Positions 1-50,895 of a stretch of DNA of 64,000 bases are shown one piece after another. Numbering within the stretch: position 1 is the stretch's first letter; each line of letters begins with the position of its first letter. The translations under genes were made by a program, and so were the position numbers. Location of the stretch: the NCBI GenBank assembly GCA_026982895.1, contig JALWQW010000019.1, forward strand, positions 16,500 to 80,499, given 5' to 3'. Below the pieces are notes generated by a model that made no database searches, had not been told where the DNA came from, and saw only the letters and a list, made by a program, of their open reading frames with translations. This stretch comes from Candidatus Micrarchaeota archaeon (GTDB lineage Archaea > Micrarchaeota > Micrarchaeia > Anstonellales > J096).

Positions 1-451
1 CAAACATCAATAAAAGTTGAGCGGCATAGCCAGCCTCTCTCAAGGCGTTCAGCATGATTGTGGAGTGGGTAAAACACACACCTTGTTTTGCATCCAACAT
101 AGCGTCAACATCTGCTATATCTCCCTTTGCGAAAAGTTTATACTTAAAGCTCCTCACCTCTGTCATCAATGATGATATATCCTCCAATGAGCGTAAACCT
201 TTATGGGCTTCAACAAGAGCTTTCACTTTAGACGAGGCTTTAATAGGTATAATATTCGGTTGATCCTCATTATAATAGGGTATTGTGACAGTTTTTTTAA
301 CAGGATAGGGTTCTAAAGCTCTATCGACGAAAACATCTCCAGCTATTGCTAAAACTGATGTTGTGATGAGCACCTTAGCTACCTTTTTGGCGCTTTTTTT
401 AATTTTTGTTTTGGCATGCTGCCACGATTCCCTGAATCTACTTAATGCCAT
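1..451 (-). CDS. Membrane-anchored transglutaminase-like (papain-fold) protein, 3' part runs off the window edge
   Basis: Not in the ORF track. Hand translation from ATG at 451 stays open to base 1: MALSRFRESWQHAKTKIKKSAKKVAKVLITTSVLAIAG...DAMLDAKQGVCFTHSTIMLNALREAGYAAQLL. Basic N-terminus, hydrophobic anchor and a G-x-C...L-R-x-x-G transglutaminase-like core motif. TTTTAAAA at 473-480. Confidence 0.6.
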   Translation of the reverse strand, partial: MALSRFRESWQHAKTKIKKSAKKVAKVLITTSVLAIAGDVFVDRALEPYPVKKTVTIPYYNEDQPNIIPIKASSKVKALVEAHKGLRSLEDISSLMTEVRSFKYKLFAKGDIADVDAMLDAKQGVCFTHSTIMLNALREAGYAAQLLLMF

Positions 452-485
452 ATAATATTAATGTAGGGAAGGTTTTAAAAAGTGT

Positions 486-1484
486 TCAGTTATGTTTAAT
501 AGTGCTATTATTCAAATTATTTAATCTTACTGCTACACTCTCAGAGTATTTAGACGCTATCTCAATATCTTTAACCTTCTCATAACCACTTTTCTTTGCG
601 TTGTCTTTTAACTTATACAATCTTATATGCGGTATGCCTAAAGCATAAGCATATGCCAACCACTTACCCCACATAGATATGTCCTTTGGCCCATATTTCT
701 TCATTAAGCTTTCGTCTTTCAATAATTTGGCAAATCTGTTCCATTTCAATCGCTCCATATAAGCATCTTTTGATGAATATCGGCCTAATAAATGATTCCC
801 TTTAAATATATACAATCCATAAATTATTAGAGGTTCTACACCAAGTCCTACCACCCATGGAACAACCCAGTTAGCGTGGAACAGTGTAATGGTTATAGTT
901 CCTATAATTAATGTTGCAACACCGACACCAAGACATATTTTTGTGAAGATATCCTCACCATTTGTATCATATAAATAAGCGAGGCTTCTTGCATAGAATT
1001 GTAAGTGTCTCTCTAAACCCTGTGCTATAAATTCATCTATTCCATCAACTTTTCTTTTATTCAACCATTCGAAAATATGGGCTAAGTATGGATTGAATTC
1101 TTTCTTTATAGCTTTCATATTTTTCACATAAAGTATGTTATTTCTTATTTCTACAAGACCTTTTAAAAGCGCTTCCATAATTAAAGGTGGCAGATCTTTT
1201 TGTGGCGATGTTTCTAAGGGCAATTCTCTAAATGCTATACTTACCTCATAGGCAGCTCTATTTTTTGGAGGTGCGTGCATGGTTTCTGGAAGTCTATCTT
1301 CATTAACTTTCGGCTTTTGCCCGTATTTTATATACAATAGCACGATACATAGAGAAATGATAAATCCTGCAATTAACGGTGCATAATTATCTATATTCCT
1401 ACCAAACCCAAAGAAAAATTGAAATAATAAACCAATAATCACCGGCGCCGTTATAAACAATAACAATCCTCTTCCTTCGCTCAT
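486..1484 (-). CDS. DUF2207-like predicted membrane protein
   Basis: Several TM segments. C-terminal W..F...L.D...MWGKWLAYAYALG matches the DUF2207 C-terminal pattern. Confidence 0.6.
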   Translation of the reverse strand: MSEGRGLLLFITAPVIIGLLFQFFFGFGRNIDNYAPLIAGFIISLCIVLLYIKYGQKPKVNEDRLPETMHAPPKNRAAYEVSIAFRELPLETSPQKDLPPLIMEALLKGLVEIRNNILYVKNMKAIKKEFNPYLAHIFEWLNKRKVDGIDEFIAQGLERHLQFYARSLAYLYDTNGEDIFTKICLGVGVATLIIGTITITLFHANWVVPWVVGLGVEPLIIYGLYIFKGNHLLGRYSSKDAYMERLKWNRFAKLLKDESLMKKYGPKDISMWGKWLAYAYALGIPHIRLYKLKDNAKKSGYEKVKDIEIASKYSESVAVRLNNLNNSTIKHN

Positions 1485-1501
1485 ACACTAACCTCAAAAT
1501 G

Positions 1502-1644
1502 TGCCGCGGGGGGGATTTGAACCCCCGACTTCTAGATGACTCAGAGCTTTTGAGCATCACCACTTAACCATGATGGTTAAGTTCAGCACTCATAGGCATA
1601 GCCCCTATGAGTCTAGCGCTCTGGCCAAACTGAGCTACCGCGGC
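1502..1644 (-). tRNA. tRNA-Met(CAT), elongator type, with a 68-nt intron at 37/38 (intron 1538..1605)
   Basis: Cloverleaf GCCGCGG/CCGCGGC, anticodon arm CTAGA-CTCATA^A-TCTAG, T-loop TTCAAAT. Bulge-helix-bulge: GGGC/GCTC, bulge TAG, CTCA/TGAG, bulge TCA. No A1:U72 pair or GGG/CCC anticodon stem, so not the initiator. Ile2 is not fully excluded. Confidence 0.95.
1538..1605 (-). ncRNA. Candidate intron-encoded box C/D guide RNA for Cm34 of pre-tRNA-Met
   Basis: Intron reads GGG-GCTATGC-CTATGAGTG-CTGA-ACTTAACCA-TCA-TGGTTAAGT-G-GTGATGC-TCAAAAGCT-CTGA-GTC. CCTATGAGT is complementary to ACTCATAGG, and the fifth base upstream of CTGA pairs with C34. Confidence 0.65.
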
Positions 1645-1668
1645 TCTTCCCTATTTACAGAGAGAATA

Positions 1669-1681
1669 TTTTAAAAGGTTG
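1669..1681 (-). promoter_or_regulatory. BRE/TATA promoter of tRNA-Met
   Basis: AAACC-TTTTAAAA on the minus strand, 24 nt upstream of the tRNA 5' end. Similar boxes lie upstream of tRNA-Ser and tRNA-Arg. Confidence 0.7.
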
Positions 1682-1750
1682 ATGATGTCCTGGCCATTAA
1701 CGGCATGCAGAGGTTTTCAAGTTAAATTCATCATTACATATTACATGGTA

Positions 1751-2278
1751 ATGGATAAAAGCTTCATGCGAGGTCAGGGTGGTGTTGAGTATATTGTGCT
1801 TATAGGTGCTGTTTTTGTCATAACCATATTAGTGCTTTACTTGTTGGTCTATGGTTTCCGAGGGCATAGTGATACTATCTCCGTTAGAAATAGTCAGACC
1901 CATATAGGACTTCTCACACCCATAGGGATACCTATTTTTACAGTAGATCAGAGTAGAAGTTATTGTTGTTATGATAATTATAAATGGTGTCGTTGTTATA
2001 AGCTTCAAGTGATTAATAATCACCTTGATAAGCGAGTTAAACTTCTTAATATAGAATTGGATGGCTACAATATTTCTTATTCTTCTCATGGCTGGAACTT
2101 ATGGTTGGATCCTGGTGCGAGTGTTGATACATATACAAGAGCTCTCCCAAGCAGTCATTATTGTAGGTATGGCACAACCAAAACATTTGAATCAGTTCGT
2201 ATATATTATAATACATCAAGTGGTGGGCCATATATAGAAACTTCTCCTGTTTCTTTGAAGGTTATGTGCCCTCAATAG
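1751..2278 (+). CDS. Class III signal peptide (type IV pilin-like) protein, Cys-rich
   Basis: MDKSFMRG|QGGVEYIVLIGAVFVITILVLYLL: RG cleavage site, +1 Q, +5 E, then a hydrophobic helix. Start moved from 1679 to 1751. Confidence 0.75.
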   Translation: MDKSFMRGQGGVEYIVLIGAVFVITILVLYLLVYGFRGHSDTISVRNSQTHIGLLTPIGIPIFTVDQSRSYCCYDNYKWCRCYKLQVINNHLDKRVKLLNIELDGYNISYSSHGWNLWLDPGASVDTYTRALPSSHYCRYGTTKTFESVRIYYNTSSGGPYIETSPVSLKVMCPQ

Positions 2279-2295
2279 TTCTAATTATATATCTC

Positions 2296-2967
2296 TCAAT
2301 TTGTTTTTAACTTTTCTATCTCCTTTGCCAGCATTTCTTTATTTTTACTGTATTTAAGTTTACCTCCTATTTTTCCTATATAAGTAGAGGTTTCAATGGA
2401 AAGCTTCTCTTTTACGAAGGGCTCATAAATAATAGTTGTAAAGTTCGCACCAGCTTTTATGGCGGGGTGAATATCTTTCCCTCTTATATTAATACTTTTC
2501 TTTTTGCCTCCTATAAGCTTGTAAATATAGTATGCGTAGCTAAGCTCGCCCATGGACCCCAGGCTTGTACCTAAGTATAAAATAGCATCTCCAAAAAGCC
2601 CTATGAGCATGTCTTGCTCATACCATGTGCCTGTATCTATGAAATCGTCGAAGATTTTTCTTTCCTGCCCATTGACATCTAATGTTGCATTCATATAAGG
2701 TTTAAGATGTTCTATACCAAAGGTTTTGTCTTGAAAAGGCACTGTCCCTATGACACGTGTTCCGCCCATTTCCTTATAAGCTTTAGCTATCTCGAAGCTT
2801 ATACCTTTATCTGGCAACAACACGAGTTCAACATGGCTTTTTACCAATGTTTCTGCTATACCCCTTATTTCCCTTATTAGTGCTTCTCTATCCATACCGA
2901 GGAGCTCTTCATAGTAATATGCGACGTCACCAGGCCCTATAATAACGATGCGCGTATTTCCTTCCAT
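2296..2967 (-). CDS. SLOG (LOG/DprA-like) superfamily Rossmann-fold protein
   Basis: RIVIIGPG; LPDKGISFEIAKAYKEMGGTRVIGTVP; GDAILYLGTSLGSMGELSYA, which parallels the LOG pattern D.fi.lPGGxGTxxE. Confidence 0.6.
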   Translation of the reverse strand: MEGNTRIVIIGPGDVAYYYEELLGMDREALIREIRGIAETLVKSHVELVLLPDKGISFEIAKAYKEMGGTRVIGTVPFQDKTFGIEHLKPYMNATLDVNGQERKIFDDFIDTGTWYEQDMLIGLFGDAILYLGTSLGSMGELSYAYYIYKLIGGKKKSINIRGKDIHPAIKAGANFTTIIYEPFVKEKLSIETSTYIGKIGGKLKYSKNKEMLAKEIEKLKTN

Positions 2968-3009
2968 AATCCTTTTCTTGCTCTAAATGTTTAAAAATTA
3001 ATGATTAAA

Positions 3010-4041
3010 TCAGCATAGCTCCTTGAGCCCTGCTAATCCTTCTCTAACCTCATCGTTGCTCCCCGCCAAAGAAATGCGCACGAATTCGCTGTAAGGGCCG
3101 AAAGCTTCTCCAGGGACGACAGCCACTCCTTTGTTTAAGGCCTTAATGGCAAAATCAGCACCATTACCGACCTTCGGAAAGATGTAGAAGCCCGCCTGTG
3201 GTTCAATAAAAGGGCAGGACAATAACTCTTTGGCAGCCGTTAGATTCTCAATGAAGTTTTTCTTTATAGCCTCGCTTATAGAGGGCCAAAGCTCATAAGT
3301 ATCTGCAAGGGCTAATTGAAGAAAGCCAGGCACAGATGTAACTGTCAGTTTCATAAAGTTGCCTAACATTGAAATGAGGTCTTTATCTCCAATGACATAA
3401 CCTATTCTAAAACCAGCTAAGCCCAAAGATTTTGAGAATGAATAAACATGGACTGAATTCTCCAACGCCAATTTTTTCTTGGCTTTTTCTCCAATGATTA
3501 AATCTTCGTAAGCTTTATCCCATATAATGAAGCCATTCTCAGGCCCGTTTACTATTTGCCCTGTTGGATTACTTGGACTATTCACTATATAGATATCCGC
3601 ATCTCTCCATTCCTTCACTTTCCACTTGTCTTCAAAATGTGTTGGTGTAGGAATATATTCTTTCCTCACTTCTTTAGCTATCAACTCGTATGCGCTCCAA
3701 TAAGGGGCGGCAGCCCCCACACTTTTCCCTTCTAACAGCTTCAAAAGAGCGTATAAGGCGAACTTTGAGCCTGGCGTTATGAGAACATTGTCTATATCGA
3801 CATCGTGTTTTTCTGCCAATTTCTCTATAAGGGGTGCTTCTCCTTTGAAAGGGCTATAGCCTACCTTACCTTCCTTCAAGCGCTCCTTCACAGCCTCGAC
3901 TATTTCCTTCGGTGGCTTCATTTTCACTTCGCCAACATTCATCTCTATGATGTGTTCGCCCCTTGCCCTCTTTTTATAGACCTCTTCAGATATTTTATAT
4001 AATATACTACTTGACATTCTATCCCTCTTCATATGAACCAA
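3010..4041 (-). CDS. PLP-dependent aminotransferase class I/II (aspartate/aromatic)
   Basis: VGE, NSPSNPTG, DKAY, SFSKSLGLAGFRIGY (PLP lysine), PG.AFG and VRIS motifs. Overlaps the pheA stop. Confidence 0.9.
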   Translation of the reverse strand: MVHMKRDRMSSSILYKISEEVYKKRARGEHIIEMNVGEVKMKPPKEIVEAVKERLKEGKVGYSPFKGEAPLIEKLAEKHDVDIDNVLITPGSKFALYALLKLLEGKSVGAAAPYWSAYELIAKEVRKEYIPTPTHFEDKWKVKEWRDADIYIVNSPSNPTGQIVNGPENGFIIWDKAYEDLIIGEKAKKKLALENSVHVYSFSKSLGLAGFRIGYVIGDKDLISMLGNFMKLTVTSVPGFLQLALADTYELWPSISEAIKKNFIENLTAAKELLSCPFIEPQAGFYIFPKVGNGADFAIKALNKGVAVVPGEAFGPYSEFVRISLAGSNDEVREGLAGLKELC

Positions 4042-4993
4042 GCACTTTGTATTTGTTAAGTTTTCCCAGAGCTCTCTTAACGCGCTCTTCTTTTAAAGAC
4101 CCATCAAATTCCACTGCAAAGAAATACTCCCAGGGTTCATTAGGCATGGGCCTCGATTCAAGCCTTGTTAAGTTTATGTTTTCTTCGTCGAAGGCTTTTA
4201 AGGCTTTTAGAAGGGCTCCGGGCTCGTGATGGACATACAAGATAAGGGCTGTCTTGTTACCGTTTTCCCTCATTTTGGTGGAGATGAGTGCAAAGCGCGT
4301 GTAGTTTCTCGACGGGCCGATGTCTTCCTCCAATATTTTAGCATTATAAATCTCAGCAGCCCTCTTGCTAGCTATCGCGCCATTTTCTTTCTCATCTTTT
4401 TCCATTATATCCTTAACAGCCCCTGCTGTGTCATACCACTTTATTGGCTTTAATCCCTTTTTGGTTAAATACTCAGAACATTGAATCAATGCTTGAGGAT
4501 GGGAATACACTTCTTTTATGTCGTTTATCTTAGCTTTTGCTATTCCTATGAGATTATGGACAATTCTGTGCTTGTATGTTGCTAGCATATACACATTGTA
4601 ATGGTGAAATAACGACCAAACATCTCCTACGCTGCCTCCTGTTGTGTTTTCCAGAGGAACAAAGCCATATTCGGCCTTGCCTTTAACTACATCTTCGAAC
4701 ACGCTTTGAAATGTGTCTCTGTAAATGGGCTCGGCAGAGGGAATGAAGTGCTTTAATGCTTCATCTGTGAACGAGCCTTTTTCTCCCTGTATACTTATTT
4801 TTGGTTTAAGCTCTTTAAGAGCTTCTTTGATAGTAACTTCAAATATTTCCTTTAACCATTCTTTATTAGATTCTCCTTTTGGAATGAATAAGTTTCCGTT
4901 GTTGTCTTTAGCATTCATCTCTTTTATCAGTTGAACCCTTTCTTCCAACAGCTTCGCTATTTTTTCGTCTAATGATTCTATGCTTTTGTCCAT
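4019..4993 (-). CDS. pheA: Chorismate mutase-like domain fused to prephenate dehydratase with ACT domain
   Basis: QGEKGSFT, PLENTTGG, SHPQALIQC, NYTRF, NLTRLESRP. Short N-terminal AroQ-like segment LDEKIAKLLEER. Confidence 0.92.
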   Translation of the reverse strand: MDKSIESLDEKIAKLLEERVQLIKEMNAKDNNGNLFIPKGESNKEWLKEIFEVTIKEALKELKPKISIQGEKGSFTDEALKHFIPSAEPIYRDTFQSVFEDVVKGKAEYGFVPLENTTGGSVGDVWSLFHHYNVYMLATYKHRIVHNLIGIAKAKINDIKEVYSHPQALIQCSEYLTKKGLKPIKWYDTAGAVKDIMEKDEKENGAIASKRAAEIYNAKILEEDIGPSRNYTRFALISTKMRENGNKTALILYVHHEPGALLKALKAFDEENINLTRLESRPMPNEPWEYFFAVEFDGSLKEERVKRALGKLNKYKVLGSYEEG

Positions 4994-5065
4994 GCTAAAT
5001 ATGTGCAGGGAAATAAATAAAAAGTGCTTTACCTCTTTTAAATACTTCTTTCCATATAAGGTTAT

Positions 5066-5836
5066 ATGAGGCGAGTCTTTAGAGGCGTTTCACCAAAAAT
5101 TGCAGAGAGTATTGCTGAGAAGACAGGCTTATATAATGCTAAGAAATTTGAGCTTGTTTTGGTCGCTATTACTTTCATTATAGTTACAGGCATTTTTTAT
5201 TACTCAATCTATAATACTGTCAATGATGATCTAAAGGTCGCATATAATAAATGCATTGCTATAAAACACTTCGATATAAACACAACCCTGCCGAAAATCG
5301 AGGGAAGAGAGCTTTGCGGCGATGTTGAAAGGATGAGTTTTAGCACGTTCAAGGAATCTCACTTTTCTGAATTTGTTAGGAAGGAGATATTGTTTTACTC
5401 TTTGCCCTATGTTTTAGTTATCATCATAACTGCTGTAATTTTTATGTCTATATACGCACGGTTTTATGATAAAGTGGAGGTTTTTTATGACAGCACCGAA
5501 AATAAGATTCTCTCTATAAAAATAGGGCATAAGATTTACAAAGGCGAAGGCGGTTTAATAGACAGCTTTAGAGTGCAATCTCCCAAAGGACTTTTGGCCC
5601 GCTTAAAGGGTTCTTATGCTCTGATAAGTTTTTCTACAAGATATAGAATACCTGATTTTCCACTATTTGATAAAGTTTTACTCCCAAAGAAGGAACTTGA
5701 ATCTTTCTTGACATTCATGAGCAGTTTTGGAAATATAAAACGCTATGAAGAATGTTTAGATAACGATAAGAATTATGATGATTTGAAGGATTGCAATGAT
5801 ATTAAATATGGATTTAGGATTTTGAAAGAGGAATAA
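5066..5836 (+). CDS. Hypothetical membrane protein (2 TM)
   Basis: 256-aa ORF with two hydrophobic helices and no recognised motif. Confidence 0.55.
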   Translation: MRRVFRGVSPKIAESIAEKTGLYNAKKFELVLVAITFIIVTGIFYYSIYNTVNDDLKVAYNKCIAIKHFDINTTLPKIEGRELCGDVERMSFSTFKESHFSEFVRKEILFYSLPYVLVIIITAVIFMSIYARFYDKVEVFYDSTENKILSIKIGHKIYKGEGGLIDSFRVQSPKGLLARLKGSYALISFSTRYRIPDFPLFDKVLLPKKELESFLTFMSSFGNIKRYEECLDNDKNYDDLKDCNDIKYGFRILKEE

Positions 5837-5890
5837 TTAATTTTAAGTTGCTTATTGAATACTTTTAAAGATTGCTGACGAAATGCAAAC

Positions 5891-6505
5891 ATGGAGCTAA
5901 TTCAAGAAGTAAATGAATTTGTAAGGGAGTTAAGCGAAGGTGAAGGCACCGGGCATGATTATTATCATGCTTTAAGAGTGTGGAGAAACGCCAAGGAGAT
6001 TGCGAAGGATTTTGATGTAGATATGGAAGTAATTGAGATAAGTGCATTAATCCATGATTTGATAGATGAGAAAGTGGAGCTAATAAGCAAAGATGAGTTA
6101 ATAAAAAAATTAAGAGACTTTGGTGTTGAAGATAAGAAAATTCAGCAGGTTATGGATGTGGTTGAGAAGATAAGTTTTAGCAAGAACATTCCTAAAGATG
6201 AGCTTAGTTTAGAGGCAAAGATTGTCCAAGATGCCGATAGGTTAGATGCTTTAGGAGCCATTGGGATAGCAAGAGTTTTTACATACTCTGGAAAAACCGG
6301 ACGGCCTATTCATGATCCAAGGATAAAACCGATACTTGATAAGAGGATTAGGAGCAAGACAGCAATAAATCATTTTTATGAGAAGCTCTTTCGTCTAAAG
6401 GATGAAATGAATACGCAGAAAGCCAAAAGAATGGCGAAGGCAAGAGAAGAGATAATGAAGAGCTTTTTGGAACAGTTTTATGCGGAGTGGGAAGGGAGAA
6501 AGTGA
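5891..6505 (+). CDS. HD-domain phosphohydrolase (YedJ-like)
   Basis: GHDYYHALRV, ALIHD, VQDADRLDALGAIGIARVF, HFYEKL. Confidence 0.9.
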   Translation: MELIQEVNEFVRELSEGEGTGHDYYHALRVWRNAKEIAKDFDVDMEVIEISALIHDLIDEKVELISKDELIKKLRDFGVEDKKIQQVMDVVEKISFSKNIPKDELSLEAKIVQDADRLDALGAIGIARVFTYSGKTGRPIHDPRIKPILDKRIRSKTAINHFYEKLFRLKDEMNTQKAKRMAKAREEIMKSFLEQFYAEWEGRK

Positions 6506-6575: not shown

Positions 6576-6648
6576 AGCCCCCGGAGGGATTCGAACCCCC
6601 GACCTGCCGCTTACAAGGCGGCCGCTCTAACCGCTGAGCTACGGAGGC
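6576..6648 (-). tRNA. tRNA-Thr(TGT)
   Basis: GCCTCCG acceptor, GCCGC-CTTGTAA-GCGGC anticodon arm, TTCGAAT T-loop. Confidence 0.97.
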
Positions 6649-9511: not shown

Positions 9512-9594
9512 CGCCGGGGAAGGGATTTGAACCCTTGCGCCCATAAGGACACCGGATCTCGAGTCCGGCGCGTTAACCACTCCGCCACCCCGGC
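9512..9594 (-). tRNA. tRNA-Ser(CGA)
   Basis: CCGGA-CTCGAGA-TCCGG anticodon arm, long variable arm, G discriminator. Confidence 0.97.
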
Positions 9595-19820: not shown

Positions 19821-19893
19821 GGGGCCGTGGTGTAACCTGGAAGCATGTCACCTTCGGGCGGTGGTGATCCCGGTTCAAATCCGGGCGGCCCCA
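19821..19893 (+). tRNA. tRNA-Pro(CGG)
   Basis: GGGGCCG/CGGCCCC acceptor, TCACC-TTCGGGC-GGTGG anticodon arm, TTCAAAT. Confidence 0.9.
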
Positions 19894-30780: not shown

Positions 30781-30855
<75 letters not shown>

Positions 30856-50166: not shown

Positions 50167-50244
50167 GCCACCTTTTGATAAGAAGTTTTTTAATGGTTGG
50201 CGTTTTTCGGCAACGCTATTAAACCCTTCTCTCCTTTTAATGGC

Positions 50245-50895
50245 ATGGATGAAATATTCAATGGTGTGTGGCGAAGAGGAAATGAAATATATACTCTCAA
50301 CGCCGTACCTGGGAAGCGCGTTTATGGTGAGAAACTTATAAGGGACAATGGCAAAGAATACCGTCGCTGGGACCCTTATAGAAGTAAGCTGGCGGCGGCT
50401 ATATTGAAAGGCCTAAAAGCTTTCCCATTCAAAGATGACAGCACAGTCCTTTACCTTGGAGCTAGCACGGGCACAACCGTTAGCCACCTTTCAGACATAT
50501 GTTTAAATGGTGTCATATTCGCCGTTGAAGTAGCCCCTCAAATGATGGAGAAGCTCATGGTTGTTGCAGAAGATAGGGAGAACATTGTCCCAATTTTAGC
50601 TGACGCTAGGAAACCAGAAACCTATGAAGATGTTGGCAAAGTTGATATTCTCTATCAGGATGTTGCCCAACCAGATCAAGTGAGAATCTTCGTTTTAAAT
50701 GCCGAGAAATTTTTGAAGAATGGCGGCGATGCGTTCATCGCCCTTAAAACCCACAGCATAGATGTAACTAAGAGCAAGGAGGAAACTCTTGAAGCTGCTA
50801 AGGCTGAAATAGAGAAGTCCTTAACTATAAGGCAAGTGGTTGACATAGCTCCTTATGACGCTGAGCATTACTTCATTCACGCGGTGAAGGAATGA
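50245..50895 (+). CDS. flpA: Fibrillarin (box C/D RNP 2'-O-methyltransferase)
   Basis: VYGE, WDPYRSKLAAAI, LYLGASTGTTVSH, DVAQPDQ. Confidence 0.96.
   Translation: MDEIFNGVWRRGNEIYTLNAVPGKRVYGEKLIRDNGKEYRRWDPYRSKLAAAILKGLKAFPFKDDSTVLYLGASTGTTVSHLSDICLNGVIFAVEVAPQMMEKLMVVAEDRENIVPILADARKPETYEDVGKVDILYQDVAQPDQVRIFVLNAEKFLKNGGDAFIALKTHSIDVTKSKEETLEAAKAEIEKSLTIRQVVDIAPYDAEHYFIHAVKE

What the first reader, a model, noticed from the sequence alone, without database searches (positions are those of the whole stretch)
1538..1605. tRNA-Met intron appears to encode a box C/D guide for its own wobble C34
Seen: the intron has CTGA (1583-1586) directly preceded by CCTATGAGT-G, a 9-nt complement of A31-C32-U33-C34-A35-U36-A37 plus the first two intron bases. 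The fifth base upstream of CTGA pairs with C34, as the D+5 rule predicts. After CTGA come a perfect 9-bp stem and GTGATGC (box C/C'), giving K-turn geometry. The layout is symmetric: degenerate GCTATGC, 9 nt, CTGA, stem, GTGATGC, 9 nt, CTGA. The guide duplex excludes the BHB helix (CTCA/TGAG), suggesting a methylate-then-splice switch. Known: euryarchaeal tRNA-Trp introns carry C/D guides for Cm34/Um39, while elongator tRNA-Met Cm34 is guided by separate sRNAs in Pyrococcus and Haloferax; fibrillarin is encoded at 50245. Inference: an intron-embedded Met guide, which I do not know to have been described.
Basis: partly seen in the sequence, partly recalled or inferred. Interest (0 to 1): 0.8.

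Follow-up and report, generated by a model that had tools for sequence, protein, structure and literature searches.

The report
Self-targeting methylation guide in tRNA-Met intron
The intron of this tiny archaeon's methionine tRNA gene carries one protein-binding kink-turn next to a short stretch that pairs with the tRNA's own anticodon, a design conserved across many DPANN archaea and some Hadarchaeota that most likely directs 2'-O-methylation of wobble base C34 before the intron is spliced out.

Summary
An elongator tRNA-Met gene lies on the minus strand (window 1644..1502), with a 68-nt intron at 1605..1538.

The intron contains CCUAUGAGU, a perfect complement of A31-A37 plus intron nt 1-2. 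One unpaired G follows, then CUGA, a 9-bp hairpin, a 3-nt bulge (GGU) and GAUGC. This is a textbook K-turn, and C34 sits opposite the 5th nt upstream of CUGA.

Comparison supports function:
- The same layout occurs in 21 of 23 relatives found by BLAST.
- It occurs in 192 of 401 Micrarchaeota genomes, against about 44 for a control pattern.
- It also occurs in Nanoarchaeota (including N. equitans), Aenigmatarchaeota, Nanohaloarchaea and Hadarchaeota.
- The guide-to-box register is fixed; patterns shifted by ±1 nt match only at control level.
- Position 31 covaries with the guide (103 A-U, 19 G-C).
- The hairpin covaries, and the 3-nt bulge is strongly preferred.

The second, "symmetric" C/D motif and second guide are not conserved; the terminal CUGA is the BHB splice helix. 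The idea is also not wholly undescribed. [quoted passage not shown]

Methylation itself is untested. Two caveats apply: single-K-turn RNPs lacked site specificity in vitro, and this lineage's Nop5 lacks the fibrillarin-binding N-terminal domain.

The parts
1502..1644 (-). Elongator tRNA-Met(CAU) gene with intron: 143 nt, G1 = 1644, discriminator A73 = 1502, no encoded CCA
   Evidence: Rfam RF00005 58.5 bits. ARAGORN -i gives tRNA-Met(cat) with a 68-nt intron.
1606..1644 (-). 5' exon, G1..A37. Anticodon C34 = 1609, A35 = 1608, U36 = 1607.
1538..1605 (-). 68-nt intron at the canonical 37/38 position
1502..1537 (-). 3' exon, A38..A73
1604..1612 (-). Target strand of the guide duplex: A31-A37 plus intron nt 1-2 (ACUCAUAGG)
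   Evidence: Exact complement of 1588-1596. Position 31 and intron nt 1 covary with the guide.
1588..1596 (-). Antisense (guide) element CCUAUGAGU. G1591 pairs with C34. G1587 is the unpaired nt next to the box.
   Evidence: UAUGAGY plus one nt before the box is conserved in 21 of 23 relatives and 192 of 401 Micrarchaeota genomes. Register-shifted patterns match only at control level.
1583..1586 (-). Box D' (CUGA), non-bulged strand of the K-turn
   Evidence: In relatives it is NNGA: AUGA 60, CUGA 32, UUGA 13 and others.
1562..1582 (-). K-turn canonical stem: 9-bp hairpin ACUUAACCA-UCA-UGGUUAAGU, directly abutting box D'
   Evidence: In 121 introns the first four stem pairs are 91, 94, 88 and 79 % canonical only when a 3-nt bulge is assumed, with 4-6 pair types each. 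RNAalifold recovers the stem base with compensatory changes.
1554..1561 (-). 3-nt bulge GGU (1561..1559) and box C' GUGAUGC (1560..1554). G1558-A1557 would form the tandem sheared pairs with A1583-G1584.
   Evidence: GA follows the stem after exactly 3 nt in 81 of 109 introns (about 6 % expected). The third bulge nt is U in 78 of 81.
1545..1553 (-). Its 3' half AGCUC (1548..1544) forms the inner BHB helix with GGGCU (1604..1600).
   Evidence: Not conserved in relatives. No 9-nt complement in the rRNA operon region.
1538..1544 (-). Intron 3' end CUGAGUC. UGAG (1543..1540) is the central BHB helix with C32-A35. UC plus A38 is the 3' splice-site bulge. The 'terminal box D' CUGA (1544..1541) overlaps this helix.
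   Evidence: The BHB helix has 3-4 pairs in 114 of 123 introns, with sequences UGAG, UGGG, CGAG or UAAG.
1669..1676 (-). TATA-like TTTTAAAA, 25-32 nt upstream of G1 (probable archaeal promoter)
   Evidence: Read from the sequence. Inference only.
1496..1499 (-). Oligo-T (UUUU) two nt after the discriminator, a probable terminator
   Evidence: Read from the sequence. Inference only.
50197..50895 (+). Fibrillarin gene, the presumed catalytic subunit
   Evidence: Pfam PF01269 260.9 bits.

Best explanation
The 37/38 intron of this elongator pre-tRNA-Met carries a minimal, single-K-turn box C'/D'-type methylation guide aimed at its own host.

Proposed steps:
1. In the unspliced transcript, the 9-nt antisense element pairs with A31-A37 plus the first two intron bases. 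This happens most simply in cis, as a hairpin.
2. Directly 3' of this duplex, CUGA and GUGAUGC form a K-turn, clamped by a 9-bp hairpin and separated from it by a 3-nt bulge. L7Ae binds the K-turn.
3. Nop5 and fibrillarin assemble on it.
4. Fibrillarin 2'-O-methylates the nucleotide paired with the 5th guide position upstream of box D', which is wobble C34 (Cm34).
5. The guide duplex uses C32-A35, the same bases that form the central helix of the bulge-helix-bulge splice motif. The RNA must therefore refold, or the RNP must leave, before the splicing endonuclease can cut. Methylation would then precede splicing.

What is shown: the anatomy, its conservation, the covariation, the fixed register, the mutual exclusivity of the two folds, and the presence of L7Ae, Nop5 and fibrillarin genes and of canonical C/D sRNAs in the genome.

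What is inferred: protein binding, methylation of C34, cis action, and the order of events.
For: - Anatomy read directly from the sequence.
- Identity as elongator Met: a separate initiator (A1:U72, GGG/CCC) and a tRNA-Ile(UAU) exist. TiaS is absent while the control rings in 4 archaea.
- Unbiased BLAST sample: 21 of 23 intron-containing tRNA-Met genes of relatives have UAUGAGU-N-NNGA-hairpin/K-loop-NNU-GA in the same register.
- Pattern counts: normal register 192 of 401 genomes against about 44 for the reversed-pattern control. One nt shorter gives 35 of 201 against about 31 control. One nt longer gives 15 of 201 against about 25 control.
- Named distribution: Micrarchaeota, Woesearchaeota/Nanoarchaeota including N. 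equitans, Aenigmatarchaeota, Nanohaloarchaea and Hadarchaeota.
- Covariation in 123 unique introns: position 31 with guide nt 2 is 103 A-U, 19 G-C, 1 mismatch. Intron nt 1 with the guide is paired in 73 of 117 against a shuffle mean of 56.6, and 0 of 2000 shuffles reach that value.
- K-turn geometry: the stem abuts D' in 109 of 123 introns. GA follows after a 3-nt bulge in 81 of 109. An anchor-only test gives 79-94 % pairing for a 3-nt bulge, against 16-53 % for other bulge lengths except one composition artefact (bulge length 0, first pair, 84 %).
- RNAalifold on an unfitted alignment picks the guide:target helix and the K-turn stem base, with 7 of 14 pairs compensatory.
- The unconstrained MFE (-63.4 kcal/mol) is the guide:target fold. 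The best cloverleaf+BHB fold is -55.6.
- Machinery: fibrillarin, L7Ae, Nop5 and four canonical 12-nt double-guide C/D sRNAs.
- Literature: the homologous N. equitans intron accumulates as a stable RNA, with coverage 31,500, in the range of its C/D sRNAs (PMC3491384). Cm34 of elongator tRNA-Met is box C/D-guided in Pyrococcus and Haloferax (PMC7994747; PMC2584109).
Against: - No experimental or RNA-seq evidence for this organism.
- Only one K-turn is conserved. Hardin & Batey 2006 (PMC1635284) found that a single-site box C/D RNP is active but not site-specific in vitro, and that both motifs are needed for specificity.
- The duplex is short: 9 bp here, and 6-10 bp in relatives.
- Nop5 of this genome and of its whole order starts at the coiled-coil. 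It lacks the N-terminal domain that tethers fibrillarin in solved structures. No separate copy was detectable, so fibrillarin recruitment in this lineage is unexplained.
- Genus g5 of the same family has a 31-32-nt intron without the element and no evident stand-alone substitute, so the element is dispensable in some lineages.
- The wide samples were drawn with a pattern that fixes the core. Only flanking positions, the hairpin and the register tests are informative there.
Confidence: 0.66

Rival explanations
1. The element is an L7Ae-binding K-turn plus an anticodon-sequestering helix that acts structurally. It would serve as a folding chaperone, a gate on BHB formation and splicing, or a stabiliser of the excised intron. 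No methylation would be involved.
For: - The K-turn and the helix are what the comparative data actually show.
- The guide fold outcompetes the BHB fold by about 8 kcal/mol, so it would gate splicing whatever else it does.
- A single K-turn is atypical for archaeal guides and non-specific in vitro.
- Nop5 lacks the fibrillarin-binding domain here.
Against: - The spacing between antisense element and box is fixed to the nucleotide, so that C34 falls on the +5 position. C34 is a site known to be C/D-guided in other archaea. A purely structural role does not predict this register.
- Fibrillarin and canonical C/D sRNAs are retained.
Confidence: 0.2
2. This is the reader's full model: a complete two-motif, two-guide box C/D sRNA. 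It would comprise a degenerate C, 9 nt, D', stem, C', 9 nt and D, and its second guide would target another RNA after excision.
For: - This intron does have a second CUGA (1544..1541), 9 nt after box C'.
- A same-genus relative (L003) has GAUGC-11 nt-CUGAGUC.
Against: - GCUAUGC lacks the G-A needed for a K-turn and is absent in relatives.
- The terminal CUGA becomes CUGG, UUGA or UUGG in relatives and is the BHB helix partner of C32-A35.
- Spacer length and sequence are not conserved.
- No 9-nt complement exists in the rRNA operon region, and AGCUC of the spacer is the inner BHB helix.
- The genome's real C/D sRNAs have 12-nt guides and perfect boxes.
Confidence: 0.05
3. The tRNA is tRNA-Ile2(CAU). 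C34 would then be converted to agmatidine rather than methylated, and the antisense element would serve that pathway or be fortuitous.
For: The CAU anticodon alone cannot distinguish Met from Ile2. The assembly is 88 % complete, so a third CAU tRNA could be missing.
Against: - TiaS is absent.
- A tRNA-Ile(UAU) with acceptor stem GGGCCUG is present, so AUA needs no Ile2(CAU).
- This tRNA has the GCCGCGG acceptor stem, and its N. equitans homologue is the annotated elongator Met.
Confidence: 0.03

Closest known systems
Stable C/D-like RNA in the 66-nt intron of Nanoarchaeum equitans elongator tRNA-Met (Randau 2012, Genome Biol 13:R63; PMC3491384)
   Same: - Same tRNA and same 37/38 intron.
- Same order of parts: CUAUGAGC-U-CUGA-CCC GAAA GGG-GAU-GAUC, with C34 opposite the 5th nt upstream of CUGA.
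- Position 31 is G there and the guide has C, a compensatory change relative to A31/U here.
   Different: - The paper gave no target ('no prediction') and did not note the antisense to the anticodon.
- It read the box C slightly differently and stressed a second GC hairpin.
- Here the K-turn stem is 9 bp and A/U-rich, the intron is 68 nt, and the organism is a Micrarchaeota member.
- The wide distribution and the covariation were not described in that paper.
Euryarchaeal pre-tRNA-Trp intron box C/D guide for Cm34 and Um39 (Clouet d'Orval 2001; Bortolin 2003; Singh 2004; cited in PMC7994747)
   Same: - Both are guides embedded in the 37/38 intron of their own target.
- Both target wobble C34 through the D' guide.
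- In both, the guide pairing competes with the BHB fold.
   Different: - The host tRNA is different.
- The Trp intron is a complete sRNA with C/D and C'/D' motifs and two guides. Here only one K-turn and one guide are conserved.
- This genome's own tRNA-Trp intron is only 16 nt and has no guide.
Trans-acting guides for Cm34 of elongator tRNA-Met: Pyrococcus sRNA (PMC7994747) and Haloferax volcanii sRNA (PMC2584109 Additional file 5; sR-tMet, Joardar 2011, from my own knowledge)
   Same: - Same target nucleotide.
- In Haloferax the guide pairs with exon plus intron of the precursor (my own knowledge), as here.
   Different: Those guides are separate genes with two motifs that act in trans. Here the guide is inside the substrate.
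Half-mer / hemi box C/D RNPs made in vitro (Hardin & Batey 2006, PMC1635284; half-mer crystal structure of Xue 2010, cited in PMC6239191)
   Same: One K-turn plus one guide.
   Different: - Those are engineered constructs.
- The hemi-complex lost site specificity.
- Here the design is natural, and the far end of the duplex is closed by a loop or held by the tRNA body.

Membership tests
Canonical archaeal box C/D sRNA (two motifs, two guides) | Terminal box C (RUGAUGA) and box D (CUGA) forming a K-turn closed by the RNA's ends | tested here: not met
   The 5' candidate GCUAUGC lacks G-A and is not conserved. The terminal CUGA is not conserved and is the BHB helix.
Canonical archaeal box C/D sRNA (two motifs, two guides) | Internal D'/C' motif forming a K-turn or K-loop | tested here: met
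   CUGA / 9-bp stem / GGU / GAUGC. The 3-nt bulge and G-A are conserved and the stem covaries.
Canonical archaeal box C/D sRNA (two motifs, two guides) | Antisense element ending one nt before box D/D', with the target nucleotide opposite position +5 | tested here: met
   G1591 pairs with C34. The register is fixed across genomes.
Canonical archaeal box C/D sRNA (two motifs, two guides) | Guides of about 12 nt bracketed by two motifs | tested here: not met
   The duplex is 9 bp and has no upstream box. This genome's canonical sRNAs have exactly 12-nt guides.
Canonical archaeal box C/D sRNA (two motifs, two guides) | Assembly with L7Ae, Nop5 and fibrillarin, and 2'-O-methylation of the target | not testable with these tools
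   The genes are present. Nop5 lacks the N-terminal domain. No biochemical data exist.
N. equitans-type tRNA-Met intron RNA (Randau 2012) | Located in the 37/38 intron of elongator tRNA-Met | tested here: met
N. equitans-type tRNA-Met intron RNA (Randau 2012) | Box D, a hairpin and box C in that order, preceded by an anticodon-loop antisense | tested here: met
   Direct comparison with the published sequence and with locus L117.
N. equitans-type tRNA-Met intron RNA (Randau 2012) | Accumulates as a stable RNA | not testable with these tools
Self-targeting intron guide of pre-tRNA-Trp type | Guide in the intron of its own target tRNA, aimed at C34 | tested here: met
Self-targeting intron guide of pre-tRNA-Trp type | Second guide aimed at U39, and a complete C/D plus C'/D' architecture | tested here: not met
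   No complement around U39. Only one conserved K-turn.
K-turn (kink-turn) RNA motif | Canonical stem, 3-nt bulge, and tandem G-A / A-G on the non-canonical side | tested here: met
   Shown by sequence and covariation only. No structure or L7Ae binding data exist.
Archaeal BHB (hBHBh') tRNA intron | Two 3-nt bulges separated by a 4-bp helix, with splice sites after the 2nd bulge nt | tested here: met
   CUCA/UGAG, bulges UA|G and UC|A, inner helix GGGCU/AGCUC. The central helix has 3-4 pairs in 114 of 123 homologues.

The most novel reading that the evidence does not exclude
Across DPANN archaea and Hadarchaeota, the elongator tRNA-Met intron is a natural 'half-mer' box C/D guide. It has one K-turn and one antisense arm, and it acts in cis on its own precursor to make Cm34 and to gate splicing. 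This would be a minimal, possibly ancestral form of RNA-guided methylation that gets by without the second motif thought necessary for site specificity. In Micrarchaeota it would moreover work with a Nop5 that lacks the fibrillarin-tethering N-terminal domain, which implies a differently assembled RNP.
Probability: 0.4. Interest if true: 0.8.

Novelty: new variant of a known kind. Interest (0 to 1): 0.6.

Why it matters
If true, three things follow.

1. It assigns a function and a target to an intron RNA that has been known since 2012 only as a stable 'C/D-like' species in N. equitans. It also shows the element is widespread in DPANN lineages and Hadarchaeota rather than a curiosity.

2. It explains how genome-reduced archaea secure Cm34 on elongator tRNA-Met without a separate guide gene. 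Cm34 is thought to keep C34 from misreading AUA (PMC7668247).

3. It offers a natural test of whether a single K-turn RNP can methylate site-specifically. The natural design differs from the engineered hemi-complexes in that the substrate is tethered in cis.

It also matters for annotation. Default tRNA finders miss this gene, and no Rfam family covers the intron element.

Tried and rejected
- Default ARAGORN found no tRNA in 1..6000. Introns had to be allowed.
- An Rfam E-value search of 1400..1750 gave no C/D family on the intron. It gave only insignificant SNORD-like hits (E about 5) at 1685..1740.
- Second guide: UCAAAAGCU has no 9-nt complement in the rRNA operon region, only 8-mers outside or at the edge. 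It was rejected as a conserved guide.
- The 13-nt copy CUAUGAGUGCUGA at G000:C27:9889 sits in apparent coding sequence, with no box C and no tRNA. I treat it as chance.
- A stand-alone guide in genus g5, whose intron lacks the element: matches to TTATGAGTNNNGA equal the control, and none has box C or K-turn context. Inconclusive.
- PF08156 (NOP5NT) rings in no control archaeon, so it is uninformative.
- The AlphaFold single-sequence model of the 217-aa ORF upstream of nop5 has pLDDT 44 and is unusable.
- The Ile2 reading was rejected.
- The key older papers are not in the held library: Clouet d'Orval 2001 was looked up by id and is not held, and a full-text search for 'sR-tMet' (Joardar 2011) returned only a review. 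What I say of them rests on reviews and my own knowledge.
Full report
**What is there**

The feature lies on the minus strand. Rfam finds a tRNA at 1644..1502 (58.5 bits). ARAGORN misses it by default. With introns allowed it calls tRNA-Met(CAU) with a 68-nt intron after A37. The intron is window 1605..1538, exactly the finding's span.

In RNA sense the anticodon arm and intron read:

CUAGA-CUCAUA | GGGGCUAUG-CCUAUGAGU-G-CUGA-ACUUAACCA-UCA-UGGUUAAGU-GGU-GAUGC-UCAAAAGCU-CUGA-GUC | A-UCUAG

- CCUAUGAGU (1596..1588) is the exact complement of A31..A37 plus intron nt 1-2.
- One G is left unpaired next to the box.
- The 5th nt upstream of CUGA (G1591) pairs with C34 (1609).
- CUGA is followed directly by a 9-bp hairpin, then a 3-nt bulge (GGU), then GAUGC. 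This is a canonical stem, a 3-nt bulge and tandem G-A/A-G followed by U-U and G-C, which is the geometry of a box C/D K-turn.

**Which tRNA**

The genome is 1.01 Mb in 30 contigs and 88 % complete. It has two CAU tRNAs:
- One has A1:U72 and a GGG/CCC anticodon stem, which marks the initiator.
- The other is this gene, with G1:C72 and acceptor stem GCCGCGG.

A tRNA-Ile(UAU) with a 29-nt intron is also present. TiaS (PF08489) is absent, while the same search rings in all four control archaea. The gene is therefore elongator tRNA-Met, not Ile2.

**Who it is**

Contig-length identities link unnamed relatives to named records:
- A same-family genome is labelled 'Ca. Micrarchaeota archaeon'.
- A same-order genome is labelled 'Ca. 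Anstonellaceae archaeon', class Micrarchaeia.

The window therefore comes from a Micrarchaeota (DPANN) genome, probably in the order Anstonellales.

**Is it more than chance**

A BLAST search with the whole precursor in 60 relatives did not presuppose the motif. It recovered 23 intron-containing tRNA-Met genes.
- 21 of them have (N)UAUGAGU-N-NNGA, then a hairpin or 4-nt K-loop, then NNU-GA, in the same register. Intron lengths range from 40 to 109 nt and the rest of the sequence is unrelated.
- The two exceptions, from one genus, have a 31-32-nt intron without the element.

Pattern searches gave these counts:

| Pattern | Genomes matched | Reversed-pattern control |
|---|---|---|
| CTCATA-N(1-31)-TRTGAGY-NNN-GA | 192 of 401 Micrarchaeota | about 44 |
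| GA one nt closer | 35 of 201 | about 31 |
| GA one nt farther | 15 of 201 | about 25 |

The distance between antisense element and box is therefore constrained to the nucleotide.

All but about three were tRNA-Met genes with this layout. Their records are named Micrarchaeota, Woesearchaeota/Nanoarchaeota, Nanoarchaeum equitans, Aenigmatarchaeota, Nanohaloarchaea and Hadesarchaea/Hadarchaeota.

**Covariation**

I analysed 123 distinct introns.
- Position 31 and the guide nt that faces it are A-U in 103, G-C in 19 and mismatched in 1. There is no A-C and no G-U. None of 2000 shuffles reaches this.
- Intron nt 1 pairs with the guide in 73 of 117, against a shuffle mean of 56.6. The switches include GG/CC, AG/CU, AA/UU and UA/UA. 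The substrate is therefore the unspliced precursor.
- In Micrarchaeales the target, a 3-bp extension, a triloop and the guide form one continuous hairpin, which argues for pairing in cis.

For the K-turn:
- A stem of at least 3 bp abuts the D' box in 109 of 123 introns.
- G-A follows its 3' strand after exactly three nt in 81 of 109, where about 6 % is expected. The third bulge nt is U in 78 of 81.
- I then anchored only on sequence, taking the first UGA at least 6 nt after D'. The first four stem pairs are 91, 94, 88 and 79 % canonical with a 3-nt bulge. With other bulge lengths they are 16-53 %, apart from one composition artefact (bulge length 0, first pair, 84 %). Each pair shows 4-6 pair types.

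RNAalifold was run on a plain MAFFT alignment of 30 arms from five phyla. It independently chose the anticodon stem 27-30/40-43, the guide:target helix and the base of the K-turn stem. Seven of 14 pairs show compensatory changes.

**The splice motif and the switch**

A canonical hBHBh' is present:
- C32-A35 pairs with UGAG (1543..1540).
- The bulges are U36-A37|G and U-C|A38.
- The inner helix is GGGCU/AGCUC.

Its central helix has 3-4 pairs in 114 of 123 homologues. Because C32-A35 are shared, the guide duplex and the BHB exclude each other. For the naked RNA at 37 °C, the unconstrained optimum (-63.4 kcal/mol) is the guide fold. The best cloverleaf+BHB fold is -55.6 kcal/mol. 'Methylate, then refold and splice' is a reasonable inference. 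It is not shown.

**What does not hold**

- GCUAUGC has no G-A and no counterpart in relatives.
- The terminal CUGA is CUGG, UUGA or UUGG elsewhere, and it is simply the BHB partner of the anticodon loop.
- The 9-nt spacer is not conserved. Half of it is the inner BHB helix, and it has no 9-nt complement in the rRNA operon region.

The genome's genuine C/D sRNAs look quite different. Four were found against one in the control, and they have perfect boxes and two 12-nt guides. None of their guides contains the UAUGAG core needed to pair with the tRNA-Met anticodon loop.

**Machinery**

- Fibrillarin is at window 50197..50895, 260.9 bits.
- An L7Ae homologue scores 90.8 bits.
- A Nop5 homologue scores 179.8 bits.

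There is an unexpected caveat. This Nop5 (304 aa) aligns to S. solfataricus Nop5 from residue 117 onward. It therefore lacks the N-terminal domain that holds fibrillarin in solved RNPs.
- All Nop5 genes looked at in the order start at the same point.
- Database homologues split into about 260-320-aa proteins with PF01798 only, whose named members are mostly Micrarchaeota or Anstonellales, and about 405-436-aa proteins with PF01798+PF21572.
- PF21572 is absent from this genome and 12 relatives.
- An HMM I built from 46 N-terminal domains finds nothing in 5,971 six-frame ORFs of this genome.

How fibrillarin is recruited in this lineage is unexplained.

**What is known**

- The euryarchaeal tRNA-Trp intron is the classical self-targeting C/D guide (PMC7994747).
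- Cm34 of elongator tRNA-Met is guided by separate sRNAs in Pyrococcus and Haloferax.
- Randau 2012 (PMC3491384) reported that the 66-nt intron of N. equitans elongator tRNA-Met is a stable, abundant RNA with a box D, a degenerate box C and a hairpin. The supplementary table gives its sequence and 'no prediction' for a target.
- That sequence, GCAUGGG-CUAUGAGC-U-CUGA-CCCGAAAGGG-GAU-GAUC..., has exactly the layout found here. C34 is at +5, and G31 is matched by C.
- Full-text searches found no paper that assigns C34 as the target or describes the element outside N. equitans. The library lacks many subscription papers.
- Engineered single-site C/D RNPs are active but not site-specific (PMC1635284). 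A half-mer RNP has been crystallised with substrate (PMC6239191).

**Earlier notes of this scan**

After I had formed this reading, I consulted the scan's notes. Several agents had reached the same reading for other genomes, and one note describes a stand-alone guide for pre-tRNA-Met C34. These notes are not independent evidence. I re-derived the claims here.

**Verdict**

The conserved unit is a single-K-turn guide aimed at C34 of its own precursor. It is not a symmetric two-guide sRNA, and it has a published but functionally unassigned precedent.
- I rate it a new variant of a known kind, with interest 0.6 and confidence in the mechanism 0.66.
- The main open points are the lack of any methylation or binding data, the single K-turn, and the NTD-less Nop5.

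Noticed in passing
G000:C14:1634-2548 (locus L182:1393-2307), outside the window: The Nop5 of this genome (304 aa) and of every relative checked in the order starts at the coiled-coil. It lacks the N-terminal fibrillarin-binding domain (about 115 aa). No separate N-terminal domain was detectable with PF21572, or with an HMM I built from 46 domains run over all six-frame ORFs. Database homologues split into NTD-less proteins of 260-320 aa (Micrarchaeota names) and full-length proteins of 405-436 aa.
   Followed up: partly
G000:C14:971-1624 (locus L182:730-1383): A 217-aa ORF with no Pfam or PDB sequence match lies directly upstream of nop5, in the same frame, separated by one stop and three codons. 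It is adjacent to nop5 only within the genus. The single-sequence AlphaFold model was useless (pLDDT 44).
   Followed up: partly
G000:C26:33004-33107, outside the window: A tRNA-Ile(UAU) with a 29-nt intron lies about 2 kb upstream of the rRNA operon, and TiaS is absent. AUA seems to be read by a UAU anticodon, as in N. equitans, rather than by agmatidine-modified CAU.
   Followed up: partly
G000:C1:35433(-), C14:2558(+), C21:7385(+), C24:31426(+): Four canonical box C/D sRNA candidates have perfect boxes and two 12-nt guides each, against one hit in the reversed-genome control. One lies just downstream of nop5. Their targets were not determined.
   Followed up: no
G000:C14:8109-8198: tRNA-Trp has only a 16-nt intron with no room for a guide. 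The classical Trp-intron guide for Cm34/Um39 is absent in this genome.
   Followed up: no
L020 and L021 (G018:C63, G011:C31), genus g5 of the same family: tRNA-Met has a 31-32-nt intron without the antisense/K-turn element. No stand-alone substitute guide was found in six genomes of the genus. This looks like a lineage-specific loss.
   Followed up: partly
G023:C4:38375-38404 and G059:C15:9469-9498 (same order, genus g12): A second conserved locus reads CTCATAATATCTACTAAYTTRTGAGTRAGA. It has an anticodon-like CTCATA and an antisense with the G-A one nt closer than in the tRNA-Met intron. Both genomes also have the normal element elsewhere. Its nature was not examined.
   Followed up: no
window 1685-1740 (-): Weak SNORD-like Rfam matches (E about 5) just upstream of the tRNA promoter include a perfect AAUGAUGA, but no box D. 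The stretch overlaps the start of ORF 1679-2278 (+, 199 aa, no Pfam). Probably not an sRNA.
   Followed up: partly
G000:C27:9889: An exact 13-nt copy of guide plus box (CTATGAGTGCTGA) sits inside apparently coding sequence, with no box C, hairpin or tRNA nearby. Probably chance, though only about 0.03 is expected per genome.
   Followed up: partly
L068, L106, L135, L137, L159, L171 (Hadesarchaea/Hadarchaeota MAGs): Hadarchaeota tRNA-Met introns carry the most compact version: guide, CUGA, a 6-8-nt K-loop, then GAUGAUG running straight into the BHB helix UGGG. The element is therefore not confined to DPANN.
   Followed up: partly
window 6576-6648(-), 9512-9594(-), 19821-19893(+), 30781-30855(+): Four further tRNA genes in the window pass the Rfam gathering score (ARAGORN: Thr-UGU, Ser-CGA, Pro-CGG, Arg-CCU). 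None has an intron.
   Followed up: no
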